From contig CBDANS010000007.1 of the NCBI GenBank assembly GCA_965197745.1, positions 1,052,306 through 1,116,305 on the forward strand: a DNA stretch of 64,000 nucleotides. The letters are read 5' to 3'. Source of the stretch: Opitutales bacterium. Lineage in GTDB: Bacteria > Verrucomicrobiota > Verrucomicrobiia > Opitutales > PNEW01. Under the pieces are notes generated by a model. That model ran no database searches. It was not told where the DNA came from and worked only from the letters and a program-made list of their open reading frames with translations. A program made the translations under genes and the position numbers. This document shows positions 15,108 to 32,444 of the stretch, in pieces. How positions within the stretch are numbered: position 1 is the stretch's first letter; every line of letters starts with the position of its first letter.

Positions 15108-15372
15108 ATAATATCCCTAGAACTAATATTATATGCATACTTAGAGGTAATATATTACCGATTACTTCTTTCACTTCCATTGTAATTTTCCTTTCTGTTA
15201 TTTGTTTATCTGAATTGTGACTTTTGTATATAATTCCCTAATTTAGCTTAATTTCTCGTTCTCATTGGATCATGGTCCAAACTCAACAAATTGGTTCAAC
15301 CGGACTTGTTTGACGAATGGAAGCAAGCTTCACGTTTGGTCTGGCTGAAATCGAAAGCGGATATAGGCGGAC

Positions 15373-17580
15373 TCACTGCTGGCGGGGCAGAGTTTCCGCG
15401 ATAGCTGGCGATGAGGTCGTGGGTAGCTCGATGATCATCTCGGTAAATGCAGCGGGTTCGGATTCCACTAGTATGCTTCCCCCGTGTTCGCGTACGATAT
15501 CATTGGAGAGGGCAAGGCCCAGCCCGGTGCCCTGATTCGTCGGCTTGGTCGTGAAGAACGGGGTAAATATCTTCTTGATGACATCGGGCTTTATTCCGTT
15601 TCCATTGTCGCGAATGCGGATTTGGATACAGTCCGTCATGCGCCGGGTGGTGAGCCGCAGAATGGGCTCGTAGTGCACGGTCTTTTTCCCTTCGGTGGCG
15701 GACGAATCGGGAGACTTGCCGTTACCCGCCTCGACGGCGCGCCGCTTCTCGTCAGTGGCATAACAGGCGTTGCTCGCCATGTTCAGGAACACCCGGCCCA
15801 GTTTCTGTTGAATGACGTCGAGTTCCCCCACCTCAGAGTCAAAGTCCTCTTCGATTTTCAGGCAGAATGTCGGGTCAGTGACCCGGGCGCTGTGGTAGGC
15901 AAACAGGGTGTGTTTGGAGAGCAGGGCGTTGATATCCGTCGGCTGCCGCTCGCCAGAGTGCCTACCCATCATAAGCATGCTTTGTACGATCTGGTTGGCC
16001 CGTTCGCCGTGCTCGTGGATGCGCTTGAGGTTGTCGGTAAGATCGCCACTGATCTCGTCGATCAGCTCGCGGCTTTCTTCACCGCCTTCACCAGTGGATT
16101 TTGGGATCTCCTCCAGTAGTTCTTCCAGTAGTTCCTCCGAAACCTCCGAAAAGTTCTTAATAAAATTCAGCGGGTTCTTGATCTCGTGGGCGACGCCAGC
16201 GGTCAATTCGCCGAGCGACGCTAGTTTTTCACGCATGATGAGTTGGTCCTGAGCCCGTTCCAGGTCGGCCAGTGCGCCCGCGAGTTGATCGTTCTTGCCC
16301 TTGAGCTCTTCGGCTAGCTTTTCCACCATATTCAGCCGTTGGACTTCCAATGCGTGGCGGCGAAAGACCTCAAGTGCCGCAGCCATATCCGCTATCTCAT
16401 CGTTCCCACTGATATCGACGGTTGCCTCCAAGTCACCCTTAGCCATGCGGCGCATTCGATCCGACAGCTGTCCAAGCCGACGTGACAGCACCCGGCCGAC
16501 ATACAGCCAAGCGATCAGTACCGCTCCGACGACGCTGATGACGCTCAACGCGAACAAGAGATTGCGTCCGGTAAGGATCGTTCGAGCGGATGTGAGGGAG
16601 GCATCCCGTACGCTTGCGTGAGCCGCACTTACCAGGCTTTCGACCTCGGACACGAGTTCTATGGCAAGAACACGATTATGGGTAAGCAAGTCTCTCTGGT
16701 ACTGGTCAAGCGCGAGTTCCCGTGAGCGGAGGTTGAAACCACCCTCCGGCCCAATGCCCAACTCAATCAACCGGGTGAAGAGAGGCGAGAGTTTCTGGCG
16801 CATCGCTGTTGATCCGAGTATGGACAGGCGCCGCTCGATACCGGAGGCGGTGGACTCGAAGCGCTCCCGCAGCGGTTCTAGCAGGGGGATGTCCGAGACA
16901 TTGAAGGCGGTTGCCAGAATCTGATCCCCAATGGTGGCATCAGCCTGTAACTCGGCAAGGTGGCGATAGCGATTGAACTCCGCTTGCGAGAAATGCTGTG
17001 CTCGGGGTGCGGGCATATCGTTAAGGTTGTCGTAGCCCGTCATTGCATAGAACAATTGATCGTCAATCGATGGAATCAGGATGTTGGTCAACTTGCTGCG
17101 CAGCGCCGCCAGTTCTCTGCGCAGCGCCTGTTGCAGGTTGGTCAGCGCGAAGTGTCCCTCCACCGAATCCTCAATGGCTTTGATGTTTGTAATCAGAGCA
17201 TCACCCCGCGCACGGATGCGCTTTGAGCGTTTCGCTTCCCCGCCTTTCCGTGTCAATGCGGCCAACTGCGTCTCGAAGGCCTTTCGATCCTCGTCGATTT
17301 TTCCAACGACGCGGGCCAAGTCCTCCGGCGACACAGCGGTAGTCAAGCGCAACGCGGCGTCTACGAGAGCGCCGCTTTGTTGCGCGGTACCAAAGGCGGC
17401 CGCCATCTTCGGGACACTATCCTCGTTCACGCGGCTCTGGACATCACCCACCCGGGCGAAGGATACCCAACCGACCAGACTGGCGACGATGGTGAGGGCA
17501 ACTCCGCCGCCGATACCTATATAGAGCTGCGTCGAGATTAGGAAACGGCTTTCAAATAGGCGTTTAAGTAGGTCTTTCAC
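15373..17580 (-). CDS. Sensor histidine kinase with two TM segments, a large periplasmic region and HAMP
   Basis: H-box AGVAHEIKNPLNFI, N-box NMASNACYA, G-boxes DNGNGI and GTGLGLALS. Confidence 0.9.
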   Translation of the reverse strand: MKDLLKRLFESRFLISTQLYIGIGGGVALTIVASLVGWVSFARVGDVQSRVNEDSVPKMAAAFGTAQQSGALVDAALRLTTAVSPEDLARVVGKIDEDRKAFETQLAALTRKGGEAKRSKRIRARGDALITNIKAIEDSVEGHFALTNLQQALRRELAALRSKLTNILIPSIDDQLFYAMTGYDNLNDMPAPRAQHFSQAEFNRYRHLAELQADATIGDQILATAFNVSDIPLLEPLRERFESTASGIERRLSILGSTAMRQKLSPLFTRLIELGIGPEGGFNLRSRELALDQYQRDLLTHNRVLAIELVSEVESLVSAAHASVRDASLTSARTILTGRNLLFALSVISVVGAVLIAWLYVGRVLSRRLGQLSDRMRRMAKGDLEATVDISGNDEIADMAAALEVFRRHALEVQRLNMVEKLAEELKGKNDQLAGALADLERAQDQLIMREKLASLGELTAGVAHEIKNPLNFIKNFSEVSEELLEELLEEIPKSTGEGGEESRELIDEISGDLTDNLKRIHEHGERANQIVQSMLMMGRHSGERQPTDINALLSKHTLFAYHSARVTDPTFCLKIEEDFDSEVGELDVIQQKLGRVFLNMASNACYATDEKRRAVEAGNGKSPDSSATEGKKTVHYEPILRLTTRRMTDCIQIRIRDNGNGIKPDVIKKIFTPFFTTKPTNQGTGLGLALSNDIVREHGGSILVESEPAAFTEMIIELPTTSSPAIAETLPRQQ

Positions 17581-18758
17581 GGGTGTGCCGAATCCCGGAG
17601 TGTCTTGATCGGGTAGTAGCGACCATCTGCGCCGATGACAGTGAGGAAAACCGCGTCCGAACCTTGGTTGTCGTTGTCGCTATAGTGGAGCTTGAACCCG
17701 TCGAGGTCAATGATATCGACGCGGCGCAGACTATCGAGAAAACATGCCCGGTCAGGCTCTCGTCCGCAGAGTTCAAGGGCGACAATAGCCAGACGGCCGG
17801 CCAAGTAGCCTTCGAAAGAGACAAAGCCGGGAAGTGCGCTGGGGGCATGAGTTTTTAGGGCCCGGCGGTAAGCCGCCGCGATGGAGGGTTCATCCGCTGT
17901 CGGGAAGGGCACCACCTGTGTGACAAAGACTCCAGTGCCGTCGGGGCCGAGTTCTCGGATCAACGCGTTGCTGCCTACGAAGGATATTGTTATAAAAGCC
18001 GGTTCGAACTTGATGTGTCGCGCCCAGGCGATCAGGGCCGCGACTGGCTGATAAGCCCCGACCAGAATCACTGCTTCAGGATCTCCGTCGCGCAGATCCA
18101 AGAGGGCCGTTTTTACGGCCGTGGTATTGCGCGGGTACACCCCGATTGCCGCCGGTTTCAGATCGCGCCTCCCGAGGGCGCGGCGAACGCCGCGGTAGCC
18201 TGCCCGACCAAAGGAGTCGTCCTGATACAACACTGCGATGCGGTAGATACCCAGGTCACTGATTATACGGGCTACCATTTCCTCGGTTTCTTGGAAGTAA
18301 GAGGCGCGCAGATTTATCACATTTCGCCACTTCGCTTCGCGAAGGAAAGCGGCTCCGGTAAATGGCGCGATATATGGAACGTCTGCAATCGCGGCGACCG
18401 GAGCAGCGGAGCGTGATGTCGGTGTTCCAACGGCTCCTATCAATGCAAAGACCTCTTCCTCCTCGATCAGCCGACGGGTGTTGGCGATAGCGGCTTCCGG
18501 TTCGTACGCATCGTCGAGGGAAAGAAGCTCAATCCGGCGCCCATGGACGCCACCCCGCCCATTTACCTCCCGGAAAGCCGCGTCGATACCGAGCCGCATG
18601 TTTTTGCCGAGATCCTGAGCGGGGCCGGTGAAGGCGGCGGACTGGCCGAAAAGGATACGTTGGGCGGAAACCCCGAACTCACCGGAGATCGGCGTGTTGC
18701 CCGCGCTGAGTACCGCGACAAGCAGAAAGGCTCCGTACCGCGGCAGCGACCCCTTCAT
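17577..18758 (-). CDS. Periplasmic Leu/Ile/Val-type (Peripla_BP_6-like) substrate-binding protein
   Basis: Signal peptide and the ABC branched-chain binding-protein architecture. Its stop overlaps the kinase start by 4 nt. Confidence 0.75.
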   Translation of the reverse strand: MKGSLPRYGAFLLVAVLSAGNTPISGEFGVSAQRILFGQSAAFTGPAQDLGKNMRLGIDAAFREVNGRGGVHGRRIELLSLDDAYEPEAAIANTRRLIEEEEVFALIGAVGTPTSRSAAPVAAIADVPYIAPFTGAAFLREAKWRNVINLRASYFQETEEMVARIISDLGIYRIAVLYQDDSFGRAGYRGVRRALGRRDLKPAAIGVYPRNTTAVKTALLDLRDGDPEAVILVGAYQPVAALIAWARHIKFEPAFITISFVGSNALIRELGPDGTGVFVTQVVPFPTADEPSIAAAYRRALKTHAPSALPGFVSFEGYLAGRLAIVALELCGREPDRACFLDSLRRVDIIDLDGFKLHYSDNDNQGSDAVFLTVIGADGRYYPIKTLRDSAHP

Positions 18759-19192
18759 CCGTTCCTCCGCTTAATTAAGGTTAGAAGGTTCTTGCCGCTC
18801 TCCCGCCGATAGTGCACCTCATCCATCAGGGTGCGCACCAGATGGATGCCGAGCCCGCCCACGGGGCGGTCTTCGAGAGACGCGTTGATATCGGGTGGGG
18901 GAGTATCGGTCAGTGGATTGAACGCACGGGCGTCGTCGGTGATCTCAACGGTGATTGTATCCATGTCCGAGACGATCTGGATTTCGACCTCGTGGGGGCC
19001 ATCGTCGCCGTGCCCATGATTCACGATGTTGATGCCTATCTCCTCGAACACGAGCTTAACCTGAAATTCGAGCTCGGGGGACCAGCTCTCCGTCCGCGCG
19101 AACTCTTCGATCGATTCGTCGATTCGTCGAAGCTCGTCGAGCGTCGTTTCCATGCGAAGTGATAACTTGGCGCTCATATGTCCCCTCCGCAT
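18755..19192 (-). CDS. Anti-sigma regulatory factor, Ser/Thr kinase (RsbW/SpoIIAB-like)
   Basis: GHKL ATPase core EIGINIVNHGH...GGLGIHLVRTLMDEV. About 140 aa. Confidence 0.75.
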   Translation of the reverse strand: MRRGHMSAKLSLRMETTLDELRRIDESIEEFARTESWSPELEFQVKLVFEEIGINIVNHGHGDDGPHEVEIQIVSDMDTITVEITDDARAFNPLTDTPPPDINASLEDRPVGGLGIHLVRTLMDEVHYRRESGKNLLTLIKRRNG

Positions 19193-20373
19193 CGGTGAAG
19201 CGTCAAACAGGTGATGTCGTCGAATTGGGGAGCGTCGTCGGCGAACGATTTCACCGCCTGGAAGACAGCAGTGGTGATGTCGTGGGCGTCCCCCGGCGGC
19301 AAACCGGCGAAGACCTCGCGCAGACGGTCGATCCCAAACTGCTCGCTCGCGTTGTTCTCCGCCTCGGTTACGCCGTCGGTATAGAGCACCACCGTGTCGC
19401 CCGGCGATAGACTCATGACACGCTTACCGTAGGGAAGATCCGGAGCGACCCCGAGGGCAATCCCGCCGGTCAACGGCAACAGCGTCGAGGTTCCAGCGGC
19501 GTTAAAGATGATTGGAGGATTATGTCCTCCGTTGACGTAAACTAGTTCATCACTCGCGGGATCGAAAACCGCCAGGAAGACGGTGACGAACATCAAGGAG
19601 TCGTTGTTCTCACAGAGCAAATGATTGGCCTGGCGTAGTATTTCGCTCGGATCTGAATGGCTAACGGCGGCCCCTTTGATCAGCGTGCAGATGGACATCA
19701 TGAAAAGGGCGGCGGGGACGCCCTTGCCCGAGACGTCAGCCACAACGAGGCCGATACGCCCGTCAGGCAAGCGCAAAACGTCGAAAAAGTCGCCGCCCAC
19801 ATCGCGAGCTGGCTCCATGCTCGCGAATACCTGATAGTCTGTGGCCTCGGGAAATTTAGTTGGCAGAATCGACTGCTGCATTCTGTTGGCTATGTCGAGC
19901 TCGTTCTCCAGTGCGACCAGTTTGTCTCGAGCCTCAAGGGCCGCACGCCACTGGGCGAGGTGTTCAAGGGTCCGTCTGATGGTTAACTGCAGATCTTCGA
20001 AGTCGATCGGCTTGATGACGAAGTCGAAGGCACCCCGGTTCATCGCCATGCGGATGTTCTCCATATCGCCATAAGCCGAGACCACCACTGCATGGATATC
20101 GGGGTTGACGGTCGGGATTTGCTCGAGAAGTGTGAGCCCGTCCATTTCGGGCATGTTGATGTCGGAGAGGACCATACCGATATTCTGGTCCTTATTCAGC
20201 CGATCAAGCGCCTCTACACCATTTCGGGCGAACACGAACTCATACAAGCCTCTACGAATCTCGCGGCGCATACGCTGGCGCACGAGTTGTTCCAGATCTG
20301 GCTCGTCGTCGACTACCAAAATCTTGTGGGGCTCTTGCATTATCACTTCTTCTGATTTTCCCTCACACCGCAT
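19174..20373 (-). CDS. Response-regulator receiver fused to a PP2C (SpoIIE/RsbU-type) phosphatase
   Basis: KILVVDDEPD...SDINMPEMDG receiver domain. C-terminal GGDFFD...DGVTE PP2C motifs. The likely start is Met at 20340. Confidence 0.85.
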   Translation of the reverse strand: MRCEGKSEEVIMQEPHKILVVDDEPDLEQLVRQRMRREIRRGLYEFVFARNGVEALDRLNKDQNIGMVLSDINMPEMDGLTLLEQIPTVNPDIHAVVVSAYGDMENIRMAMNRGAFDFVIKPIDFEDLQLTIRRTLEHLAQWRAALEARDKLVALENELDIANRMQQSILPTKFPEATDYQVFASMEPARDVGGDFFDVLRLPDGRIGLVVADVSGKGVPAALFMMSICTLIKGAAVSHSDPSEILRQANHLLCENNDSLMFVTVFLAVFDPASDELVYVNGGHNPPIIFNAAGTSTLLPLTGGIALGVAPDLPYGKRVMSLSPGDTVVLYTDGVTEAENNASEQFGIDRLREVFAGLPPGDAHDITTAVFQAVKSFADDAPQFDDITCLTLHRCGGDI

Positions 20374-20423
20374 ATAGTATACTATCCGGTCTCAATCGAC
20401 AAAAGCAGCCCCCTCGATTCACG

Positions 20424-20801
20424 TCAAACGCTGGGAGGCGGTTTTGTAATAGATTTCTGATCAAGGGAGGCGAGCACCTTGGCTCGGGATTCAAAGATTG
20501 CAATGATCTGGTCGAACCCGCTGATCTCAAAAATTTCCTTGATCGAATCCGACAGAGAATAGAGAGCAAACTTGATGTTCTGTTTCCCAAAAGTCTTGGC
20601 AATCAAGAGGACCGCCCGAAGGCCTGCGCTGCTGATGTAGGTAATCTTTTCAAAGTCGATTATCACGGTATAATCATTTTCCGTAATTGAGGTTCTGACC
20701 GCCTCCTCGAACTCACGTGCATTGGCGCCATCAATGCGCCCCTCCACCCTGATGGTCAAGATGGTGTCTTGTCGTTCAGATTTCAACTGCATCGCTGTCA
20801 T
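20424..20801 (-). CDS. STAS-domain anti-sigma-factor antagonist
   Basis: VIIDFEKITYISSAGLRAVLL contains the conserved phospho-Ser context. Confidence 0.8.
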   Translation of the reverse strand: MTAMQLKSERQDTILTIRVEGRIDGANAREFEEAVRTSITENDYTVIIDFEKITYISSAGLRAVLLIAKTFGKQNIKFALYSLSDSIKEIFEISGFDQIIAIFESRAKVLASLDQKSITKPPPSV

Positions 20802-20971
20802 CTCCTAAGTTTGTTCATGCCCCCAACTATATTTCCACTTGCACGGTGATTATACTTTGAAACACACTTCTATAATGTAGGGTAGAATATAATTTGCAAC
20901 TATAGTGGTAATGTTGCCTATATCAAGGTTTTTTGACAGCGCCCGCTATCTGAAAAGATCATATTAAATGC

Positions 20972-22357
20972 TTATTTGTCCTCCTCCGGCATCAGAACGA
21001 ATTCAGGGTAGGCTTCTATACCCAGTTCCCCCACGTCTTGGCCAAGGCCCTCGATAGACGGTGCGATCCGGGCTCCCAGAGTTTTATCGATGATTAGCCA
21101 GACAAGTAACGAAGTGAAAAATGTAAAGGCCCCGATGGCTGCGATGCCGACAATCTGCACTAGGAAATTACCACCGGCCGCAATACAGGTCGCAAGCGTT
21201 CCCCAGATGCCTGTAAAAAGATGGGCTGGAACCGCACCGACCACGTCATCAATCTTTAAGCTCTCCATCACTTTTATCCCGATGAAGCAAATCGCTCCGC
21301 CCACTGCCCGAATGATAACAGCCCAGTAGTGCACGACAATGTCGGGGGCTGCGGTGATCGCGACAAGACCGGCGATTACACCGTTCAGGCCCGCGAACAG
21401 GTCGACGCGTCCTAAAATGGGCCGCGACAAGCAGATCGCGGTCATAACCCCCGCTGCCGCCGCGAGATTGTTGTTGGCAAAAATATTGCTTATAGCCACG
21501 GCATCTGCCGCGCCGCTCATGGCAAGTTGCGAGCCTCCATTGAAACCAAACCAGCCCATCCAGAGGATGAAGACGCCGAGCATCACGATGGGCACATTCG
21601 AGGGCGGTGTCATCTTCACGGTGCCATCGGCGCGAAATTTGCCTTTCCGTGCCCCAATAACGATGGTCCCTGCGAGCGCCGCCCAACCACCGGTAGAGTG
21701 TACGATTGTCGATCCGGCAAAATCCTTGAATCCCATTTCGGAGAACCATCCGCCGCCCCATGTCCAGGCACCAACGACCGGGTAAATGATTGTCGTCAAC
21801 AATGTGATGAAGATGAAAAAAGACCATAGCTTCACTCGTTCGGCCAGGGTCCCGGACACGATCGACGCGGTCGTCGCTACGAACACCATCTGGAAAAACC
21901 AGTTCGCCATTGTGGATTTACCGCTCCTTAAGACGGCCTCAGCGGCGGCATCGTTTCCAGACAGCAACGCAATCTCCTCTCCTGTCGGCCCATACAGGAA
22001 CTTGAACGACCCGAACCAGTCGTCGACATACATGATATTGTAGCCAACTAGGTAGAAGGTAAGTCCCGCGATGGAATAGAGCCCGACATTCTTCAGACAG
22101 ATCATTGATGCGTTCTTGGTGCGCACGGAACCCGCTTCGAGCATGGTGAAGCCCGCGCACATCCACATTATCAGAACCCCCCATACTAGGAGCATGAAGC
22201 TGTTCAGAACGAATTGCGTTTCGCGATCAACGGCTGCGTACGCGTCCGTTGGGGAAATCAACAGAAAGAGAATGGCTGCAACGGCGACGAATCTGGCCGT
22301 ATGCCAGCAGTGCGCACCAAGACAGGCACCAAATAATCCGGTTTCGTTTCTACTCAC
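20972..22357 (-). CDS. amt: Ammonium transporter
   Basis: About 11 TM segments. Amt signatures FAGSTIVHSTGGWAAL and WGTLA. Confidence 0.9.
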   Translation of the reverse strand: MSRNETGLFGACLGAHCWHTARFVAVAAILFLLISPTDAYAAVDRETQFVLNSFMLLVWGVLIMWMCAGFTMLEAGSVRTKNASMICLKNVGLYSIAGLTFYLVGYNIMYVDDWFGSFKFLYGPTGEEIALLSGNDAAAEAVLRSGKSTMANWFFQMVFVATTASIVSGTLAERVKLWSFFIFITLLTTIIYPVVGAWTWGGGWFSEMGFKDFAGSTIVHSTGGWAALAGTIVIGARKGKFRADGTVKMTPPSNVPIVMLGVFILWMGWFGFNGGSQLAMSGAADAVAISNIFANNNLAAAAGVMTAICLSRPILGRVDLFAGLNGVIAGLVAITAAPDIVVHYWAVIIRAVGGAICFIGIKVMESLKIDDVVGAVPAHLFTGIWGTLATCIAAGGNFLVQIVGIAAIGAFTFFTSLLVWLIIDKTLGARIAPSIEGLGQDVGELGIEAYPEFVLMPEEDK

Positions 22358-22723
22358 TTCCCTCTTACCTCCCAGGTATCTTTTGATCCAAGGGTTTCAC
22401 GAAAGACTGAAACCACCAAAGAGCATACCACCCTGCTCCAAACAGGTGATCTAGGCTCATTTTCAGGTGTTGTTAAGGTGATCATGCAAGGCTTCTGCAT
22501 CAATCCATTTATAAAATAATATTAACTGGATTTATGCTATTATTACATGCACATCCCAGCTATAAGTCAATGTCATTCTTGATCCGTTTATTGGTTCGAA
22601 AAATCTGGCGATCGTCCATCCCGGACGCGTCAGCAACGGCGACAAGGGTACCATTCGGGCATGTGGTCCTGGGTATCCTTCGGCCGCTTATCTAGTCAGC
22701 AAACACCGACGGGCCGAGCGCAT

Positions 22724-25220
22724 TCAGAATAGCTTGCGCAATGTCACGCCGAAGGTCCGTGGTTCGCCCAGGAAGGCGTTAAAGGTCTGAGTCGAGTCCG
22801 GCCCCAGTTCCCCTACCTTGTAGCGGCGCGTCAAAGGCAATTTGAATGTAGTTTTTGGCGAACAGGTTCTTGGCCCACAGCTCCAAGCTCCAATCCCCGT
22901 TGATGCTCCCTATGCCAATGCGCCCATTTACCAAGGCAAAACTATCTTGAAGTTTCTCAACATCCAAGTCTGAACCGGTGTTATAGCTACTCATGTATCG
23001 CAGATTCAGATGCAGGAAACCGAGTAAGGCCCCGTTGAGATCGCGTTCATAGGTGGCAGCACCGGTAACAGTCCATTCAGGCGCGTTGGTGAGCTGTTGT
23101 CCCGCCAAGGATGCATTGGAAATGTTCGCGCCGTACTTCGTATCGGCGTAGGTTAGACCTCCACGCACCGTCAGACCCTCTGATAGCAGGGCTGTCGTTT
23201 CCAGTTCAAGCCCCCGAGAGGTCACCTCATCCAGATTCTCGACTATAAACTGGATTCCATTGAAGGTGTTAAGCTGGAAGTCTTCGAAGTCCATGTAAAA
23301 CATCGTCGCATTGACAGTCACACGCTGGTCGAAGAGGCCAAACTTGCCGCCAACCTCGAAGGAGTCCACTGTCTCCGGCTCGAATTAGAGATCCGCGATC
23401 GAAGGAATGGCGCCCAAGAGTGGATTGGACAGACCGGAACGGTCAAGATTGAAGCCGCCTCCCTTGTAGCCGTGCGCATAGTTGGCGAAGATCAAATCGT
23501 CATCACCGAAGTTATAGGCTATACTGAAGGTGCTGGACCATTCTGTCTCCTCGCGGTCGCCAGTGTATGCACCATCATTGAACGGATTGGTAGATGGCAG
23601 ACACACAAGCCCTATAATGGTGGGTGCCATTTCCGCTGGAATTAGTCCCGAAGCGACCGCCTGTTGCACATTAGTGACGAAAGAAGGGGTACAGGCACGG
23701 TTATTGCTTAGCAAGCTTGCATCGAGATCTTTGGTCTCTTTGGTGTAGCGCAATCCCACAGTGAACTCAAAGTCATCCGCGAAGGTCAAGGTATTATGAG
23801 TGAATATGGCCGAGCTCCTCGACTGCTGAAAAAATTCGTCCTGAACTACACCGTCACCTTCCAAGAACACGGTGCCAGGCGCCAAACCCGTGAACTGAGA
23901 GTAAAAACCACTGAATGGATCTCCGGAAACAAGGCCGTTGATGTAATTCTCATAGTGGGCCCCCGTACGGATGGCGTCTCGAAAAGCAAGGTCCTCCTTA
24001 CTGTAGAAAAACCCCACCAGCCAGTCCACCATTCCGATTTCGCCCTGGGCCCGAAGTTCCTGGGTAAATGTCTCGAACCCTTGGATAAAACTATCCTCGT
24101 CTCTGTACAGAATATCCACGTTGGTAAAGTCGACATCCTGGCTACGAGCCACCTGCCAATCGCGGTAGACTGTAATTGGGGTAACCGTGGCAAACTTTGC
24201 ATCCCAGTTGATCTCAGCTGACAGTCCCCATTCTTTCACATCCTGTTGATAGCCGCGATCAGCATCGACAGCGCTCTTGCGCTCGAACGGATCGCCAAGC
24301 AGTGTGCCGCCGAGGGCCTGTATGAGGCCAAGCGTCGGTCCAGGCACCCAAGTGACAGCACCGCAACACTGTTCATTGCGGTCGGCGTAGTCGCCGATCA
24401 TGCGGACGCTGATAAAGTCGTCCGGTTCCCAAAGCAACTGGCCACGGAATAGCACACGGTCCCGATCGTTGTAATCTCGTTCCAACTCAATATCTTCCAG
24501 AAATCCGTCCCGTTCACTGAACACGGCATCAATGCGCGCTGCCAAGACGTCTTTAATTAAGCTCCCCGTAGCGCCACCTGTCACCCGAATATTGCTATAA
24601 TCGCCGTAACCGACTTCAGCGTACCCGTTGCCTTGGTACTCTGGTGCCTTGGTAATGACATTGATCAGTCCTGCCGAGGTGTTGCGCCCAAACAGGGTTC
24701 CTTGCGGGCCGCGCAGGATTTCGATGCGCTCGACCTCGCCGAGTTCGGTCAAACCGACGTTGTTGCGGTTCCGGTAGACGCCGTCGACAAAAATGCCAAC
24801 TGCGGATTCGAGGCCAGGGTTGTCGCCCGTGGTACCGACACCGCGGATGCGCGCTACTGCGCCCGCGGATTCCGACCCGGAGCTAGATAAAAACAAGCTC
24901 GGCGAGATGGCCATGAGTTCGCGGATATCCTGAACACCGGCAAACTCAATCTGTGTCTCCGAGTAGGGCGTAACGGCAATGGGCACTTCTTGGGATAAGC
25001 GTTCCCGCTTTGTGGACGTCACCACAAATTCCTCCATATCTATCACCAGGATCGATTGTTCTTCCTGTGCCTCAATCTCCTTCCCTTGTCCGTTATCTCC
25101 ATCAAGGGGCTCATGGATCCTTGCAACAAAGAAAAGGCAGATTACAAAATACCTACCCTTATTGTTAAATGTCATATATTCTTCCCTCTCGCCTGATTTG
25201 GAGCCCGCACAGAGGTCCAA
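22724..25220 (-). pseudogene. TonB-dependent receptor with an in-frame TAA and a C-terminal frameshift
   Basis: Plug motifs IEILRGPQGTLFGRN. A TAA stop sits between ...IADL and FEPETVDSFEVGGK (23370-23384). The canonical end PRTFGVTLRKLF* is in another frame and stops at 22724. Confidence 0.8.
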
Positions 25221-25376
25221 TTAGAACAGTCTACTTTTAAGTAGACTCACATATTCCAGTGGAAATCAAGCAGGATAAGTGGTCTAGTCCACAAAATTCA
25301 TAATTTTGCGATTGCCTGGGTAGTTGAATTACATTAAGATATTTTCTGTCAACAAGATATCGTATAATCTCACCAT
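25077..25376. repeat. 300-bp direct repeat, copy 1 (5' end and leader of the TonB-receptor gene)
   Basis: Nearly identical to 27051-27350. Confidence 0.9.
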
Positions 25377-25525
25377 CCTACACACAATTATATGCGGTGT
25401 AATAACCCTATTGGAATTTCAAGCTTTAGCGAGGCGAGAGGGTTGCCGTTAAGAGAATTTGGAAATAAAAAGGCGATTGAGCTAGTGTTTCATAGATTCT
25501 CGTGGACAAGGGTTTGTTGAATCAA

Positions 25526-25687
25526 CCTGCAACTCGGCGAGGTGGCGATAGCGATTGAACTCCGCTTGCGAGAAATGCTGTGCTCGGGGTGCGGGCACAG
25601 CGTTAAGGTTGTCGTAGCCCGTCATTGCATAGAACAATTGATCGTCAATCGATGGAATCAGGATGTTGGTCAACTCGCTGCGCACCT
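25526..25687 (-). pseudogene. Fragment duplicated from the histidine-kinase gene (equivalent to 16945-17107)
   Basis: About 95% nucleotide identity. Encodes LTNILIPSIDDQLFYAMTGYDNLN... Confidence 0.85.
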
Positions 25688-25712
25688 TGACCAATGACCA
25701 CGATCCGACTGG

Positions 25713-26966
25713 CTAGAAATTGTAAATCAGGTTTAACTCGATGAAGCTGTCGCGTCGTAACTCATAGTCGAGAGCTGCTCTGTCGATACCGAGAAGAGCG
25801 ATTACCTCCAGGTGTAGAAACCACTGTTCAGAGATACGCCGGTTCAATTCGACAGCCATTACACGTGAAGTCATGTCCAAGTCTTTCAGGAAACTGGTGA
25901 GAATCTCTGTGCTTTGGGGATCGTTAAACGAAACGCGCGTGCCAAAGAATAGATCATTCTGGAAGATATTGGTCGCATTTCGGTCACGCTCATCGTAAGT
26001 CCATTCGCCGAGCAGGCTGATATCGGTAGTCGAACCCCATACGGAATAAAACGTATATTCACCGCCAAAAGCGGTAGCAACGTAATCCTCTTCCAGGCCG
26101 AGCCGGTTTCGAGTGCCGGAGCGCTGAATAGCCTCAAGCTTGAACAACCAGGAGCCGATAGTTAGCTGGGTGTCCAGCCCAAACTGGCGGATCTGCTCGT
26201 AGTGCGGAGCGAAGACCAGCGCGCCACTGCGGTCTCTGCTCGGCAGTAGTAAAGGCTCCCGGCTGGTACCATCGAATACGCTCAGACCAATATCCAAGGG
26301 TCCTAAACTGTGGCTGTAGCGGGCAGCGAGATCCAGATGCCACTTCTCGGCATCGCTCTCATAAGAGGTCTGCTCAGTGTCCACGACTAGTGGAAAGCGC
26401 AGACGGCCAAATCTGCTCGGAAAGGTGCGCGCGCGGTGGTAGGTCAGACCAAATATTTCTGCCACACCCCAATCTCCGGACCAAGTGAGATGGGCCATGG
26501 GTTGACCTAGCTTAGGTTCTTTGTATGGGTGTTCCACCAAGTCGATCTGGTTGATGATATTTACTAGGTGGCGGGATTCGGTAACTCCCCAGAATACCCG
26601 GTCAACGCCCAGGCGCAGTTCCCATTCATCATTGCCGATTTCGCCGAATAGCAAAAGGTAGGCTTCACGCAGATCGGCATGCGTGCGGTGTGGATCCCAG
26701 GCGTCGTAACGAAATAACGGCGCCAGAGTGAGGCTTCTACCCTCGACGTCCTCAAGATAGAGTTTTAGCTCCGCAACAAAACCGCTGGCATGCGAGCGCT
26801 GGTCGGAATGAGCGGCGGCTTGGGGATGCCACCGGCTTCCAACACTCAAGCGTCCAGAAAACTCGCGGTTAACGATCTCAGCACGTACTTCGACGGGTAA
26901 GACCAAGGCCAAAATCCAGACGGTGCTGAGAACCGTGCTTTGAAGAATAACACGAATCAGCATCAA
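25713..26966 (-). CDS. Putative outer-membrane beta-barrel protein
   Basis: Signal peptide, alternating beta-strand pattern and a terminal ...LIYNF. Confidence 0.55.
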   Translation of the reverse strand: MMLIRVILQSTVLSTVWILALVLPVEVRAEIVNREFSGRLSVGSRWHPQAAAHSDQRSHASGFVAELKLYLEDVEGRSLTLAPLFRYDAWDPHRTHADLREAYLLLFGEIGNDEWELRLGVDRVFWGVTESRHLVNIINQIDLVEHPYKEPKLGQPMAHLTWSGDWGVAEIFGLTYHRARTFPSRFGRLRFPLVVDTEQTSYESDAEKWHLDLAARYSHSLGPLDIGLSVFDGTSREPLLLPSRDRSGALVFAPHYEQIRQFGLDTQLTIGSWLFKLEAIQRSGTRNRLGLEEDYVATAFGGEYTFYSVWGSTTDISLLGEWTYDERDRNATNIFQNDLFFGTRVSFNDPQSTEILTSFLKDLDMTSRVMAVELNRRISEQWFLHLEVIALLGIDRAALDYELRRDSFIELNLIYNF

Positions 26967-27050
26967 CTTACTCGTCTCAGCCCTGTTTGGGTGAAATCGC
27001 AGTCATTGAGTTCAGTTCGGAACTGATAATCCGTCCAGGTCAACACGGTG

Positions 27051-27350
27051 CTCCTTCCCTTGTCCGTTCGCTCCATCAAGGGGCTCATGGATCCTTGCAA
27101 CAAAGAAGAGGCAGATTACAAAATACCTACCCCTATTGTTAAATGTCATATATTCTTCCCTCTCGCCTGATTTGGAGCCCGCACAGAGGTCCAATTAGAA
27201 CAGTCTACTTTTAAGTAGACTCACATATTCCAGTGGAAATCAAGCAGGATAAGTGGTCTAGTCCACAAAATTCATAATTTTGCGATTGCCTGGGTAGTTG
27301 AATTACATTAAGATATTTTCTGTCAACAAGATATCGTATAATTTCACCAT
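27051..27350. repeat. 300-bp direct repeat, copy 2
   Basis: Includes the orphan ORF 27012..27194, which repeats the TonB-receptor N-terminus. Confidence 0.9.
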
Positions 27351-27906
27351 AAAGGTGTCTTCCAGAATCTTAAGTGCAATCTCAAGGCTTACCAGAAGCG
27401 GTCCAATCTGGGGCTAGAGTGGCCATTCGGGGACCGCAGGCCATACGTTTTCCACACTGACTGTTTCGATGTAACCGTTGTACTCTCGCCGATCATCGCC
27501 AGCTGCGGACGCTGAACGTGAAAAGTCTGGATTGTGGTCCATTGGATAGGAAAGAGAAGTGTATACTTAATTAACAAACCTCCTCTTTTTTCGCATAGCG
27601 CTGACAATCTCGTTGGCTGAAAAGTGCCTGTCAAGATCCGATGACACTAAATTGACTGGTTTCTTGGTAATGTAGCACCCTGCACCGTGGCCCTGTTACA
27701 TTGCAATTTGGCACTTGTCGATCATTGCATCCAGAACTGGCTTCATTTGCTAGGGGACAAGACTCTGGATATTACGGTTGAGCCCTTCACCATGGATGGG
27801 AAGCGAACGCCCGACAAGCAGCCGCCGTTCAAAGGCGTGAGGCTCAGCCCCTGATACATATTACTATTGACACGCCAAAGAAATATCGACAAATTGAAAA
27901 TTTGAG

Positions 27907-29061
27907 ATGGTTAAAATACCAACGGCATATACGGAAAGTTATGCGAAGGCCTGTCTCGTCGACCCTACGGCGGCTGATAACTATATCAAGCACACCCTGA
28001 TTGGGGATCCTGAACTTGACCCGGTGATGGAGGAACTCTCCTCGTTGCCTCCTGGGGACCTGCACCGGTTCATCGAGGCTGGCATAGAGCAGCAGGATGA
28101 TGTCCTGCCCACTGCGCCGCGGGTACTGCGCGATTACTTCGAAAATTTTAAAGATCCTCCCTGGCTCGACTACGAAGCCTTTCGTCCAGGGATTCGCGCC
28201 TTCCACGCAAACGTAAACCTCATGCTCGTTGCATTCGTTACGGGGGTGCTAGTGGAAGGCTTTTCGACGCTTATCGCGAAGTCTTTCAATATTACCGGGC
28301 GGGTGGCCTCGACGAAAAGACGACTCCAGCAGAATAACCGCCACATGATGGATATTTTTTTCCCCGGTGGATTGCTAAGAAATGGCGATGGATGGAAGCT
28401 GTCCACGCGCATTCGCTTCATTCATACTCGGATAAGGAACCTGTTGGCGAAATCCGACGATTGGAATCACGAAGCTTTGGGCATGCCGGTAAGTGCTGCG
28501 CACTTGGGATTTGCCATATCCGTATTTTCCCAGCGCTTGGTAGAATACTCGTTGTTGGTGGGCGCGTTACTTAACAAGGAAGAACAAGAGAGTGTTATTA
28601 ATGTTTGGCGCTACACCGGTTATCTCATGGGGATACCTGAAACAATCCTGTATACCAGTCGCGCGGACGCGGTAAAAATGTACAAAATCGGGTATCTGTG
28701 CGAGCCGCCGCCGGACTCCGATTCGGTGACTGTGGCGAATATGTTGATTCAGTCCATTCCTTCAGTTGCGGATATAAACGATCCCGTTGAAAAGAAAAAC
28801 CTAGTAAAATTGGCCTACCGTCTTTCACGAGCCCTCATAGGAAACCGAATCGCCGACCAGTTTCAGTTCCCCAAGACCTCTACCCTAGGAACCCTGTGGA
28901 TTTACCGGATGAAACAACGCTTCCAGCGATTCCTGAAGAGCAATCAGATCCTTAGGTCGGAGAATTTTTCTCAACTTCTGAAAATCTCGGTGTACGACGA
29001 TCAAGGACTAAGTTACAGGATGCCCAACCACGTCCACACAGCAAAATCAATCGACTGGTGA
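27907..29061 (+). CDS. DUF2236/MpaB-family oxygenase-like protein
   Basis: Size and the motif STRIRFIHTRIRNLL resemble the MpaB/rubber-oxygenase fold family (from memory). Confidence 0.55.
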   Translation: MVKIPTAYTESYAKACLVDPTAADNYIKHTLIGDPELDPVMEELSSLPPGDLHRFIEAGIEQQDDVLPTAPRVLRDYFENFKDPPWLDYEAFRPGIRAFHANVNLMLVAFVTGVLVEGFSTLIAKSFNITGRVASTKRRLQQNNRHMMDIFFPGGLLRNGDGWKLSTRIRFIHTRIRNLLAKSDDWNHEALGMPVSAAHLGFAISVFSQRLVEYSLLVGALLNKEEQESVINVWRYTGYLMGIPETILYTSRADAVKMYKIGYLCEPPPDSDSVTVANMLIQSIPSVADINDPVEKKNLVKLAYRLSRALIGNRIADQFQFPKTSTLGTLWIYRMKQRFQRFLKSNQILRSENFSQLLKISVYDDQGLSYRMPNHVHTAKSIDW

Positions 29062-29214
29062 AGATGCTTAAGGCTGTTGTACAACCAACTTCGAATGGCA
29101 CCCGTTTCCGTCTGGTAACAGGAAACAGGGATTTGGCCATTAGAGGGAACAAAGGTATCTGTAGTCGGCAGTGTCGATAGCACTACGCAATCGAGTCGGC
29201 GATTCAGTCGCAGC

Positions 29215-31530
29215 TTGCAGCCCAGGAGCGTCGAGGCTATGAATCCTTTGCAATTGGACCGCTACATTGCGACCATTGTGAGCCACCGGTGGCTGGTCGC
29301 TGCTCTGGCCGTGTTGGTCATGGTGGTGATGGCGGCGGGCGTACGCTTTATTTCCGTGACAAACGATTACCGAATCATGCTGGGTGAAGACAATCCGCAA
29401 CTCGCGGCTTTTGACGCCCTGGAGAACACCTATTCGGTATCGAACAAGGCCCTGATTGCCGTCGCCCCTCAGGAGGGCTTGGTGTTCACTCGCGAGGCGC
29501 TTGGGGCGATTGAGGAGCTGACCGAAACCGCGTGGCGTGCCCCTTATTCCAATCGGGTCGACTCCCTGAGCAACTACTCCCATAGCGAGGCCTCCGGGGA
29601 TGATTTGATTGTCGAACCGCTCGTCGATAACGCGCAATCGCTGAGTGATGCTGACGTGGCGCGGATCGAGACGATCGCGCTGAACGCAATCGAGATTGCG
29701 GGGCGTCTGGTCTCCCATGACGGACGTGTGGGCGGGTTGGTGATCAATTTCGTACTGCCCGAAAATCCGGATGCCGCGGTGGTCGAGATAACCGATTATC
29801 TTGATGCCCAGCTGGAAAAGGCGCGCGCGCGCCATCCGGATGTCGCTTTTTACCTGACCGGCGATGTTATCATGAACCGCGCTTTCGCCGACGCCACCCA
29901 AGATGATTTGAAGACCCTCGTACCGGTCGTGTTTGTGATCATCACAGCCGCTGCAGCCTTTCTGCTGCGTTCGGTATGGGGCACTCTGGCCATCGTTGTC
30001 GTGCTGGTGTTCGTGGTCAACACCACTATGGGGTTCGCCGGCTGGCTCGGCACGGTGTTCAACCCCGCCAATTCTGGCGTACCGCTCATCGTCATGGCAG
30101 TCGCCGTCGCGCATTCGGTGCATATCGTCTTAACCACTTTACAGCGCATGAGCCATGGTCTGGACAGGAATGCGGCGATTGCGCAATCGCTTCGTAGCAA
30201 TGCCTATCCGGTGTTTCTTACCACCCTCACGACGGCGATCGGGTTTCTCAGCCTGAATGCATCGGATTCGCCACCTTTTCACGACTTAGGCAATTACGTG
30301 GCCTTTGGCGTGTTATGTGCCTTCGTCTACTCCATGACTCTCCTGCCAGCGATGCTTTCGCTCCTGCCATTGCGTGCGCCTCCTGTCCGCCCTGAACGGC
30401 CTGTCTTCTTCGACCGCTTCGGCGCCTTTGTCGTCGAATACCGCAGATTCTTGCTTTGGTTCGTCGTCCTTCTGGCCGTGTTGCTGGCCATGGGCATTCC
30501 CCGCAATGAACTGAGCGACAACTGGACGCGGTATTTCGATGATCGTTATGAGTTTCGGCGCCACACAGACTTCGTCATCGAAAACCTGACGGGTTTGGAA
30601 ACGCTGGAATACTCGCTGAACACGGGGTGCGAAGGCGGTATCACCGATCCCGAATACCTACAGACAATTAATGGTTTCGCCGAATGGTACCGGGGGCAAC
30701 CCGAAGTGGTCCATGTCCAGGCCTTTCCGGACATCATGAAGCGTCTCAACAAGAACATGCACGGCGACGACCCGGCCTTCTATCGGTTACCTGACAATCC
30801 GTCGCTCGCTGCGCAATATCTGTTGCTCTACGAGCTTTCACTTCCGTTCGGCAGTGATCTCAACGACCGTATTGACGTCGCCAAATCCGCAACGCGCATG
30901 ACCGTCGTGGTCCGCGGTTCGTCGGCTAGGGAGCAGCGCGAGCTTGATGCGCGTGCGCAGGTTTGGCTCCGCGACCATGCGCCCGACCTTACGACCGCAG
31001 CATCGGGCATCAGTATGGTCTTCGCTCACCTTTCCAAACGAAACATCGACAGCATGCTACGTGGCACGATCATGGCCATGGCCCTCATTTCGCTCATCCT
31101 GATCTGGGTTTTCAAAAGCGTGCGCCTGGGCCTCGTCAGCCTGATCCCAAATTTCCTTCCCGCAGTCATGAGCTTCGGTCTGTGGGGCTATCTCGTCGGC
31201 CGTGTGGGCATTGCCTCCTCAGTCGTCACCGCCGTCGCCTTCGGCATTATCGTGGACGATACCATTCATTTTCTGACCAAATACCTAAAAGCTCGCCGCG
31301 AGGGCCTCCAAGCGTCCGAAGCGGTGCGCTCGGCCTTTCGCACTGTAGGTCAGGCGTTATGGACCACGACCGCGGTCTTGTCGGCGGGCTTCCTGGTGTT
31401 CGCTTCATCGGGATTCGAAGTCAGTTGGGCGCTTGGTCTTCTGGTCACGATCACCGTCATCTTCGCGCTCCTCACCGATTTCTTTCTTCTGTCCACTCTG
31501 CTGATAGCCATCGACCGGGAGAAACCATGA
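29215..31530 (+). CDS. RND-superfamily (MMPL/HpnN-like) exporter
   Basis: Two six-helix bundles, each preceded by a soluble loop. The likely start is Met at 29239. Confidence 0.85.
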   Translation: MQPRSVEAMNPLQLDRYIATIVSHRWLVAALAVLVMVVMAAGVRFISVTNDYRIMLGEDNPQLAAFDALENTYSVSNKALIAVAPQEGLVFTREALGAIEELTETAWRAPYSNRVDSLSNYSHSEASGDDLIVEPLVDNAQSLSDADVARIETIALNAIEIAGRLVSHDGRVGGLVINFVLPENPDAAVVEITDYLDAQLEKARARHPDVAFYLTGDVIMNRAFADATQDDLKTLVPVVFVIITAAAAFLLRSVWGTLAIVVVLVFVVNTTMGFAGWLGTVFNPANSGVPLIVMAVAVAHSVHIVLTTLQRMSHGLDRNAAIAQSLRSNAYPVFLTTLTTAIGFLSLNASDSPPFHDLGNYVAFGVLCAFVYSMTLLPAMLSLLPLRAPPVRPERPVFFDRFGAFVVEYRRFLLWFVVLLAVLLAMGIPRNELSDNWTRYFDDRYEFRRHTDFVIENLTGLETLEYSLNTGCEGGITDPEYLQTINGFAEWYRGQPEVVHVQAFPDIMKRLNKNMHGDDPAFYRLPDNPSLAAQYLLLYELSLPFGSDLNDRIDVAKSATRMTVVVRGSSAREQRELDARAQVWLRDHAPDLTTAASGISMVFAHLSKRNIDSMLRGTIMAMALISLILIWVFKSVRLGLVSLIPNFLPAVMSFGLWGYLVGRVGIASSVVTAVAFGIIVDDTIHFLTKYLKARREGLQASEAVRSAFRTVGQALWTTTAVLSAGFLVFASSGFEVSWALGLLVTITVIFALLTDFFLLSTLLIAIDREKP

Positions 31531-32342
31531 TCCACGTCTATCTCACTCGATCGGCATGCTTGTTTCTCGTCCCCTGCCTGGCTTATCTGGGTACGCCCTC
31601 CCTCGCCCGTTCAGACGACGCCACTGCCGAGGAAGCTGGGCTGAAAATCGCGGTTGAAGCACGCGATCGTGCAAAGGGTTTTGGCAATTTTACGGCTCGC
31701 CAGACCATGGTGCTGCGCAACAGGCAGGGACAGGAGAGTCAGCGCGAACTGCGCGTAAAGGTTCTGGAGGTTGACGGTGACGCCGACATGAGCATGTTCG
31801 TGTTCGATCATCCGCGCGACATCAAGGGGACCGCACTTCTCATCCACGCCCACCGGAAAGGGGCGGACGACCAATGGCTCTATCTGCCCGCCCTGAAACG
31901 GGTCAAGCGCATCAGTTCCTCGAATCGTTCCGGTTCCTTCATGGGCAGCGAATTTGCCTATGAGGACATGAGCGCCCCGGAGGTGGAGAAGTTTACCTAC
32001 CGCTACCTGCGCGACGAGCCTTACGGCGAGTTGACATGCACGGTCTCCGAACGCGTCCCCGTCGATAATAAATCGGGCTACACTCGCCAACTCGTCTGGC
32101 GCGACAAGGACGAGCTTCGCGTCTTGAAAGTGTATTACTTCGACCGCAAGAATGAACACCTGAAGACTCTCACCATGAGCAACTACGCGCAGTATCTGGA
32201 TCGTTACTGGCAGGCGGGCACGATGACAATGGTCAATCATCTCACCGGTAAAAGCACCGTTATGACTTGGTCCGATTATCAGTTTCGTACCCAACTCGAT
32301 GCCTCCGACTTCTCCCAAACCGGCCTCAGACGCACGCGTTGA
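31527..32342 (+). CDS. Outer-membrane lipoprotein-sorting (LolA-like) protein partner of the RND exporter
   Basis: ATGA start/stop overlap with the exporter. Contains WLYLPALKRVKRISSSNRSGSFMGSEFAYEDM. The long upstream part of ORF 30963..32342 is a shadow. Confidence 0.75.
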   Translation: MIHVYLTRSACLFLVPCLAYLGTPSLARSDDATAEEAGLKIAVEARDRAKGFGNFTARQTMVLRNRQGQESQRELRVKVLEVDGDADMSMFVFDHPRDIKGTALLIHAHRKGADDQWLYLPALKRVKRISSSNRSGSFMGSEFAYEDMSAPEVEKFTYRYLRDEPYGELTCTVSERVPVDNKSGYTRQLVWRDKDELRVLKVYYFDRKNEHLKTLTMSNYAQYLDRYWQAGTMTMVNHLTGKSTVMTWSDYQFRTQLDASDFSQTGLRRTR

Positions 32343-32417
32343 TCCCTACCCCTCCTCATCACGCGCGCACCTTTTCTTGGCCGTCTGCGTTTCCGGCAAG
32401 ATAAAAATTAAGGGGAC

Positions 32418-32438: not shown

Positions 32439-32444
32439 GTAAGA

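What the first reader, a model, noticed from the sequence alone, without database searches (positions are those of the whole stretch)
15300..32345. Sharp compositional island: a 17-kb high-GC block inside AT-leaning DNA
Seen:
- From about 15300 to 32345 the sequence is visibly GC-rich with GC-rich third codon positions.
- Both flanks (15108-15300 and 32346 onward) are AT-rich.
- The left edge abuts IS3 copy 3. The right edge abuts the 21-bp inverted repeat at 32418.
- The block holds an environmental-sensing and transport gene set, several decayed genes and internal duplications.

Inference: the block was acquired horizontally from a higher-GC donor, possibly as cargo of integrase module 2. 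A chimeric assembly join is the trivial alternative.
Basis: partly seen in the sequence, partly recalled or inferred. Interest (0 to 1): 0.5.

Follow-up and report, generated by a model that had tools for sequence, protein, structure and literature searches.

The report
Plasmid fragment captured in a chromosome
The 17-kb GC-rich block is real: it is a piece of a roughly 44-kb plasmid that became fixed in the chromosome of a low-GC sponge-associated bacterium, an ordinary kind of gene transfer in which the donor molecule can be identified.

Summary
The compositional island is real. The block has GC 0.54 against 0.44-0.47 in the flanks. Gene GC3 is 0.59-0.73 against 0.36-0.49 in other non-mobile window genes (0.44-0.46 in hemY/E/F and recR). 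Exact limits are 15239 and 32411.

It is not an assembly chimera. Both junctions recur in a second sample and the right one in a third.

The block is collinear, at 97.5-98.6% nucleotide identity, with one continuous arc of a 43-44 kb circular contig. That circle was assembled in three samples, including one that also holds this chromosome. It encodes RepA, an RHH protein and ParA, so it is a plasmid.

Related chromosomes carry other arcs of it, one set with a truncated repA. A same-species relative has an intact integrase island next to hemY and no block within the 10 kb recovered.

Integrase module 2 is truncated at 33797, so the block is not its regular cargo. A 1,385-bp element with 31-nt terminal inverted repeats forms the right junction. 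A matching 15-nt terminus abuts the left edge.

The host looks verrucomicrobial (Opitutales-like). The cargo is a sensor module, Amt and an MpaB-MMPL-LolA-like cluster. Its MpaB-MMPL core recurs at 70-80% protein identity in MAGs labelled with more than ten taxa, most apparently sponge-associated.

This is a new member of a known kind.

The parts
15239..32411 (.). Plasmid-derived block: one continuous 17.2-kb arc of the ~44-kb plasmid
   Evidence: Collinear at 97.5-98.3% over long BLAST spans with circular contigs of 43,937 bp, 43,137 bp and 43,593 bp. Only small indels separate it from the 43,937-bp circle.
15373..17580 (-). HAMP histidine kinase
   Evidence: Pfam HAMP, HisKA, HATPase_c
17577..18758 (-). 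Periplasmic binding protein (Peripla_BP_6)
   Evidence: Pfam E 2e-54
18755..19192 (-). RsbW-like kinase (HATPase_c_2)
   Evidence: Pfam E 2e-27
19174..20340 (-). Response regulator fused to a PP2C/SpoIIE phosphatase
   Evidence: Pfam Response_reg plus SpoIIE
20424..20801 (-). STAS-domain partner-switching protein
   Evidence: Pfam STAS
20972..22357 (-). Ammonium transporter (Amt)
   Evidence: Pfam Ammonium_transp, E 2e-92. The 461-aa form also occurs on other copies, including the 43,137-bp circle.
22779..25220 (-). TonB-dependent receptor, pseudogene (ORFs of 196 and 611 aa)
   Evidence: Intact at 816 aa on the plasmid. Split in the window, with a 1-bp indel at 22798.
25713..26963 (-). 416-aa predicted outer-membrane protein (weak DUF1302 match), in a cassette between 300-bp direct repeats
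   Evidence: The cassette is missing or replaced in some copies. The gene follows the LolA-like gene in other phyla.
27907..29061 (+). MpaB/Lcp-family oxygenase-like protein
   Evidence: Pfam MPAB_Lcp_cat
29239..31530 (+). MMPL / sterol-sensing-domain RND transporter
   Evidence: Pfam MMPL. 70-80% aa identity in MAGs labelled with many different taxa.
31527..32342 (+). LolA-like periplasmic protein
   Evidence: Pfam LolA_like, E 1e-58
15108..15238 (+). 131-bp AT-rich spacer; its last 15 nt (15224-15238) resemble the terminus of the inverted-repeat element and face the block
14080..15119 (-). IS3-family remnant ('copy 3'), lacking about 290 bp at one end
32412..33796 (.). 1,385-bp AT-rich element with 31-nt terminal inverted repeats (21 nt exact) and no recognisable transposase; it forms the right junction
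33797..36513 (-). Integrase module 2, truncated (integrase at 35178-36464; the 344-aa gene is cut at 33797)
10595..14071 (-). Integrase module 1 (integrase at 12736-14022, 344-aa-type gene, HTH_17; the adjoining 193-aa gene at 10032-10613 reaches just beyond this range)
36610..42187 (.). Native low-GC core flank: hemY, hemE, hemF, an epimerase, ybaB, recR, tRNA-Gly

Best explanation
The block is a 17.2-kb continuous arc of a roughly 44-kb circular plasmid with RepA_C, RHH and ParA genes and no relaxase or integrase. That plasmid circulates in the same microbial communities, apparently sponge-associated. The arc became fixed in the chromosome of a low-GC (about 0.45) Verrucomicrobiota (Opitutales-like) bacterium. 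It sits in a mobile-element hotspot next to hemY.

Shown:
- The block and the plasmid share recent ancestry.
- The junctions are real.
- The integrase island backbone is truncated exactly where a 1,385-bp inverted-repeat element begins.
- Other arcs of the plasmid lie in related chromosomes.

Inferred:
- The direction was plasmid to chromosome.
- Capture involved the inverted-repeat element. Either it formed a composite-transposon-like unit, or a plasmid-chromosome cointegrate formed and adjacent deletions then removed the replication module and the other 27 kb.
- IS3 activity later eroded the left side.
- The cargo reached the plasmid from higher-GC members of the community.

Likely function, from domain families only:
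- A periplasmic-ligand sensor kinase feeds an RsbU/V/W-type partner switch.
- An ammonium channel and a TonB-dependent receptor (now dead) serve uptake.
- An envelope-spanning hydrophobe transport set combines an MpaB-like oxygenase, an MMPL-type RND pump, a LolA-like protein and an outer-membrane barrel.
For: Plasmid identity:
- Circular-flagged contigs of 43,937 bp, 43,137 bp and 43,593 bp come from three samples.
- The record ends of the 43,937-bp circle are adjacent in collinear copies: record 43683 matches window 27582 and record 1 matches window 27851.
- The circle carries RepA_C, RHH and ParA.
- Its RepA is 27-31% identical to annotated RepA proteins on 988 PLSDB plasmids.

Collinearity and identity:
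- The block aligns to the circles from 15239 to 32407/32411 at 97.5-98.3%.
- Against the 43,937-bp circle there are two 1-bp indels, plus a 14-nt length difference at 27583 beside a 254-nt stretch of that circle that was not recovered.
- In two multi-gene test regions the window copy is the most diverged copy, at 98.0-98.7% to the circles (97.6-98.7% to all non-window-type copies). Non-window copies are 98.3-100% identical to each other.

Spread compared with core genes:
- 90%-identity clusters of block proteins hold 14-20 members on many contigs.
- The RecR and HemF clusters each hold one member.

Recurrent chromosomal capture:
- The 2.07-Mb and 2.86-Mb contigs carry a 27-kb arc. They also carry a 9.5-kb arc with a 204-aa truncated RepA.
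- A 4.98-Mb circular chromosome of GC about 0.45 carries a 7-kb arc, and the large-protein part of it is duplicated.

Polymorphism: relative L017 is 98.9% identical in the core. It has an intact island and no block within 10 kb.

Junctions:
- The element's termini coincide exactly with both breakpoints on the right.
- A terminus-like 15-mer ends exactly at 15238. The motif occurs three times in the window, always at a breakpoint. That motif was defined after seeing the sequences. Allowing three mismatches gives 4 matches against 1.27 expected.

Composition:
- Plasmid genes have GC3 0.53-0.75, apart from two small ORFs.
- The tetranucleotide signature of the block correlates 0.57 with the window core and 0.86-0.88 with homologous Acidobacteriota and Versatilivoraceae loci.
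- The non-block arc of the plasmid correlates 0.78 with the core.

Host: every organism-named HemE relative is verrucomicrobial or from Opitutaceae, at 58-63% identity.
Against: - No reads were available, so circularity and junctions rest on assemblies.
- The host of the plasmid was not shown. In the shared sample the circle has 10x coverage against 35x for the chromosome.
- The inverted-repeat element has no transposase and no other copy in anything searched.
- No target-site duplication was found.
- The interior of the left spacer does not align significantly with the element.
- The plasmid backbone is itself GC-richer than the chromosome, so 'native plasmid of this lineage' is uncertain.
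- The tetranucleotide match to Acidobacteriota loci is inflated, because those loci hold homologous genes.
Confidence: 0.75

Rival explanations
1. The block is regular cargo of the tyrosine-integrase element next to hemY (module 2). It arrived by site-specific integration.
For: An integrase lies 2.8 kb from the right edge, and a second related one lies 1.2 kb from the left. Such islands carry variable cargo: a relative has OLD- and UvrD-family genes, a Gabija-like pair, there.
Against: The element backbone is truncated at 33797, inside the 344-aa gene. An unrelated inverted-repeat element separates it from the block. No att-like repeats were found. No integrase was called on the fully recovered 43,937-bp circle. 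The same DNA sits in different contexts in other chromosomes.
Confidence: 0.08
2. The direction is reversed. The gene set is chromosomal in this lineage, and the plasmid picked it up from such chromosomes.
For: Several related chromosomes hold arcs of the same DNA. Exchange can run both ways.
Against: The arcs are GC-rich patches in chromosomes of GC about 0.45. The chromosomal copies are partial, differ in extent, and include a truncated repA and a dead receptor gene. The window copy is the most diverged.
Confidence: 0.1
3. Assembly chimera: plasmid reads were wrongly joined to chromosome reads.
For: The plasmid co-occurs with the chromosome in at least one sample.
Against: The left junction recurs in a second sample. 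The right one recurs in two further samples. The chromosomal copy is 1.4-1.9% diverged from the co-resident circle and carries its own mutations.
Confidence: 0.02
4. Native compositional heterogeneity, with no transfer.
For: Other small GC-rich genes are scattered through the window.
Against: There is near-identity to a plasmid. Presence is polymorphic within the species. Cluster sizes differ strongly between block and core proteins.
Confidence: 0.02

Closest known systems
Plasmid-derived genomic islands formed by IS-mediated cointegration and later deletion
   Same: Plasmid DNA sits in a chromosome with element termini at both edges. The replication module has been lost, genes have started to decay, and presence is polymorphic between strains.
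   Different: The flanking element has no recognisable transposase. Only a 15-nt terminus survives on the left. No target duplications are present.
RepA_C/ParA low-copy plasmids (PLSDB entries annotated 'replication protein RepA')
   Same: A RepA_C initiator lies next to RHH and ParA partition genes on a circular replicon.
   Different: Only 27-31% identity to known RepA proteins. No conjugation or mobilisation genes. The cargo is almost entirely transporters and a sensor module. The best-scoring relatives of the large protein sit mainly on contigs of 43-45 kb. The block has no near-identical DNA match in PLSDB.
AmeABCD-type HAE3 RND systems (Castellaniella defragrans; PMC6394551)
   Same: An MMPL/HAE3-type RND pump is encoded beside periplasmic and outer-membrane partners, in a mobile island.
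   Different: Here an MpaB-like oxygenase is added. The outer-membrane partner matches DUF1302 only weakly. No substrate is known and no sequence-level orthology was tested.
RsbU/RsbV/RsbW partner-switching modules
   Same: A STAS protein, an RsbW-like kinase and a PP2C phosphatase are encoded together.
   Different: The phosphatase is fused to a receiver domain. It is paired with a HAMP kinase and a periplasmic binding protein. No sigma factor is encoded in the block.

Membership tests
Horizontally acquired genomic island | Composition deviates from the host core | tested here: met
Horizontally acquired genomic island | Presence is polymorphic among close relatives | tested here: met
   L017 is 98.9% identical in the core and lacks the block within 10 kb
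Horizontally acquired genomic island | Insertion at a tRNA gene with flanking direct repeats | tested here: not met
   The only tRNA is at 42114-42187. No att-like repeats were found.
Plasmid (applies to the 44-kb circle) | Replication initiator and partition genes | tested here: met
   RepA_C, RHH, ParA; RepA homologs in PLSDB
Plasmid (applies to the 44-kb circle) | Closed circular molecule separate from the chromosome | tested here: inconclusive
   Three contigs are flagged circular and their start points are permuted. No reads could be checked. Reading the '_c' suffix as 'circular' is my inference.
Plasmid (applies to the 44-kb circle) | Relaxase or conjugation genes | tested here: not met
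   None appear in the full gene list of the 43,937-bp circle
Composite transposon | Two copies of one element flank the cargo | tested here: inconclusive
   A full element lies on the right. Only a 15-nt terminus-like match lies on the left.
Composite transposon | Transposase gene and target-site duplication | tested here: not met
   No transposase domain; the flanks are unrelated
Cargo of a tyrosine-integrase integrative element | Intact element backbone with att sites enclosing the cargo | tested here: not met
   Backbone cut at 33797; no att repeats
RsbU/V/W-type partner switch | STAS protein, RsbW-like kinase and PP2C phosphatase | tested here: met
   Pfam
RsbU/V/W-type partner switch | A controlled sigma factor or other output | tested here: not met
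   None is encoded in the block
AmeABCD-like HAE3 RND system | HAE3-type RND pump with DUF1329/LolA-like and DUF1302 partners | tested here: inconclusive
   MMPL and LolA_like/DUF1329 matches are strong. The DUF1302 match has E 5e-4, below the family cut-off. The HAE3 phylogeny was not run.

The most novel reading that the evidence does not exclude
The cargo may be a niche-adaptation module for life in sponges. It comprises a ligand-sensing partner switch, Amt and an MpaB-MMPL-LolA-like-barrel set.

Its MpaB-MMPL core recurs at 70-80% protein identity in MAGs labelled with more than ten taxa. Small non-conjugative plasmids of nearly constant size (43-45 kb) may be its vehicle. That size hints at a packaging limit, such as transfer in particles or vesicles.

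On this reading the window would show one delivery into a chromosome.
Probability: 0.2. Interest if true: 0.65.

Novelty: new member of a known kind. Interest (0 to 1): 0.42.

Why it matters
Transfer between uncultivated symbionts is usually inferred from composition alone. Here the donor replicon, the recipient site, an apparently unoccupied site in a same-species relative and several stages of decay are all visible in public assemblies. That makes the route testable: plasmid, then chromosome, then erosion. The cargo's MpaB-MMPL core is also shared at unusually high identity across many taxa, most apparently sponge-associated. This makes the gene set a candidate for function in that habitat. 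The mechanism itself is ordinary.

Tried and rejected
- Rfam found nothing beyond tRNA-Gly, either at gathering thresholds on the whole window or at relaxed thresholds on 5300-7200 and 32300-36700.
- Near-identity (megablast) DNA search of the block against PLSDB gave no match.
- The exact 21-nt inverted repeat has no match in JGI metagenome contigs. Among fetched loci it occurs only in window-type copies.
- A search for att-like repeats of the integrase-module end found none.
- Aligning the 131-bp left spacer to the interior of the inverted-repeat element was not significant: 19 of 300 and 59 of 300 shuffles scored as well. Only the terminal 15 nt match.
- The small ORFs of the inverted-repeat element have no domain match even at E = 1.
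- The 1.1-kb shared noncoding module gave a consensus fold with a covariation term of about zero. I do not call it an RNA.
- The genome-collection scan did not return the window's own genome. Host taxonomy therefore rests on HemE relatives only.
- One contig look-up timed out.
Full report
**Observation**

The block is compositionally distinct. GC is 0.541 for 15300-32345, against 0.443 on the left and 0.471 on the right, and both edges step sharply in 200-bp windows. Block genes have GC3 0.59-0.73. The flanking housekeeping genes hemY, hemE, hemF and recR have GC3 0.44-0.46. Against 19 other non-mobile window genes (GC3 0.36-0.49), Mann-Whitney gives p = 3e-6. No other 17-kb window exceeds GC 0.488. 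The window is mosaic elsewhere too: CorA, an IS4 transposase, an amidohydrolase and PhyH genes are small GC-rich patches. This block is the dominant one.

**Gene content**

- The block encodes a HAMP histidine kinase and a Peripla_BP_6 binding protein. It also encodes an RsbW-like kinase, a receiver-PP2C phosphatase and a STAS protein.
- It carries Amt and a TonB-dependent receptor.
- It carries a 416-aa protein with a weak DUF1302 match, an MpaB/Lcp-like protein, an MMPL transporter and a LolA-like protein.
- Two related 428-aa tyrosine integrases, each with accessory genes, bracket the region.
- An IS3 remnant lies near the left edge.

**Not a chimera**

A near-identical chromosome from another sample reproduces both junctions (L001 and L004 are 99.9-100% identical). 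A third sample reproduces the right junction (L005).

**What the block is**

Copies of the block at 97.5-98.6% identity occur on many contigs. Three of these are flagged circular and come from three samples. Their lengths are 43,937 bp, 43,137 bp and 43,593 bp. One comes from the same sample as the chromosome twin.

I recovered all but 254 bp of the 43,937-bp circle. It encodes RepA_C, an RHH protein and ParA. Its RepA is a distant homolog of annotated plasmid RepA proteins. No integrase or relaxase gene was called on it.

The rest of the circle encodes:
- three TonB-dependent receptors and SSF and SDF transporters;
- an outer-membrane protein, PNPOx and a nucleoside deoxyribosyltransferase;
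- a 1,563-aa orphan protein.

The window block equals one continuous arc of this circle, from 137 bp past the kinase stop codon to the LolA-like/receptor intergenic region. The record ends of the circle are adjacent in collinear copies, which supports circularity.

**Direction and recurrence**

- 90%-identity clusters of block proteins have 14-20 members on many contigs. The RecR and HemF clusters have one each. The block is therefore shared more widely than the core genome.
- The 2.07-Mb and 2.86-Mb contigs carry a 27-kb arc. About 15-20 kb away in the 2.07-Mb contig, by record coordinates, they carry a 9.5-kb arc with parA and a truncated 204-aa repA.
- A 4.98-Mb circular chromosome with background GC about 0.45 carries a 7-kb arc, and the large-protein part of it is duplicated.
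- In two test regions the window copy is the most diverged of all copies.
- The window copy has one dead gene, the receptor. That gene is split into two ORFs and carries a 1-bp indel. The other genes are intact, with overall pN/pS of 0.35.

Partial, differently sized, decaying GC-rich arcs in chromosomes of GC about 0.45 argue for transfer from plasmid to chromosome.

**The locus**

A relative that is 98.9% identical in the core (L017) shows hemF-hemE-hemY, an integrase, a 344-aa gene, HTH_17, a 194-aa gene and an OLD-family plus UvrD-family gene pair (Gabija-like). It has no block within 10 kb. In the window this backbone stops at 33797, inside the 344-aa gene.

From 32412 to 33796 lies an AT-rich element with 31-nt terminal inverted repeats, 21 nt of them exact. 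Its two tips coincide exactly with the plasmid breakpoint and the island breakpoint. The flanks are unrelated.

On the left, 131 bp separate the IS3 remnant from the block. The last 15 nt of that spacer match the element terminus in 12 of 15 positions and face the block. The motif occurs three times in 64 kb, each time at a breakpoint. I defined the motif after seeing the sequences, so its significance is overstated. The positional coincidence is what counts.

The element has no transposase and no other copy in anything searched. I favour capture through this element, either as a composite unit or as a cointegrate followed by adjacent deletion. I hold that step at about 0.5.

**Host and deeper origin**

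Every organism-named HemE relative is verrucomicrobial or from Opitutaceae.

An MMPL profile scan of species-representative genomes found no hit above 80% identity. It found 70-80% hits in MAGs labelled Latescibacterota, Binatia, Acidobacteriota, Bryobacterales, Rhodobacterales, Nitrospirales, Gammaproteobacteria, Opitutales and others. One is named Poriferihabitaceae.

The sponge context is my reading of the isolate names. Two papers are consistent with it but do not name these isolates. A sponge genome note used metaMDBG and lists similar phyla (PMC12648040). A demosponge MAG study sampled Rhopaloeides odorabile (PMC8163846).

MpaB, MMPL, the LolA-like gene and the 416-aa gene are syntenic in 62-79 of the 79 loci. 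In several Acidobacteriota, a Versatilivoraceae MAG and a Nitrospirales MAG the sensor module is adjacent as well. Amt is adjacent in four of them. Those loci have GC 0.57-0.62.

The tetranucleotide signature of the block matches those loci (0.86-0.88) better than it matches the window core (0.57). The non-block arc of the plasmid is closer to the core, at 0.78. Shared homologous genes inflate the first figure.

**Function**

This is inference from domain families only. A periplasmic ligand is sensed by the binding protein and kinase, and the receiver-PP2C phosphatase then drives a STAS/RsbW-type switch. The output is unknown, because no sigma factor is encoded in the block. The MMPL, LolA-like and barrel set resembles AmeABCD-type HAE3 systems that move hydrophobic compounds (PMC6394551). 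The added MpaB-like oxygenase suggests processing of a lipid or isoprenoid.

**Verdict**

The horizontal origin is confirmed and the donor replicon identified. The integrase-cargo idea and the chimera alternative are both rejected. This is a new example of a well-known process, with an unreported plasmid family and an unclassified inverted-repeat element.

Noticed in passing
window 5500-6706; also L011 17321-18437, L007 17897-19054, L017 16313-17186: A roughly 0.75-1.1 kb noncoding module is shared at 77-82% identity between the plasmids, the integrase islands and this window. Substitutions show no 3-base periodicity and no ORF is conserved. It has paired GTRGACACAC-plus-A-run motifs about 105 bp apart and an internal segment that exists in two alternative versions. 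There is no Rfam match and no covariation support.
   Followed up: partly
window 42461-42521, 46998-47058, 50658-50718, 54728-54788, 55544-55604: Five copies of a 60-80 nt repeat end in a GGGGTAT...ATACCCC hairpin. They lie downstream of tRNA-Gly, among genes that include small GC-rich ones (CorA, an IS4 transposase, an amidohydrolase).
   Followed up: partly
window 12108-12580 and 34648-35085: The noncoding stretch between each integrase and its neighbouring gene is 90-94% identical between the two modules. The flanking coding DNA is only 82-87% identical.
   Followed up: no
L016 10001-14692 (plasmid); L097/L098; one search hit list: A 1,500-1,570 aa orphan protein on the plasmid is only 57-86% identical among its closest relatives. 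Many of those sit on contigs of 43-45 kb, and the constant size is unexplained. Two identical copies lie 16 kb apart in a 4.98-Mb circular chromosome.
   Followed up: partly
L017 19374-21362: In a same-species relative the integrase island next to hemY carries an OLD-family ATPase/TOPRIM gene followed by a UvrD-family helicase gene. This is a Gabija-like defence pair.
   Followed up: no
window 3949-4772 and 60008-60831: An 824-nt inverted repeat at 75% identity joins the 3' part of the 794-aa CARDB/trypsin-like gene to the 658-aa gene, 55 kb away on the other strand.
   Followed up: no
window 56914-63891: Four PhyH-family dioxygenase paralogs lie within 7 kb. Their GC3 values differ widely, from 0.44 to 0.70.
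   Followed up: no
window 25377-27050: The 416-aa gene sits in a cassette between 300-bp direct repeats. Other copies of the block lack the cassette or carry a Trp_dioxygenase-like gene there instead.
   Followed up: partly
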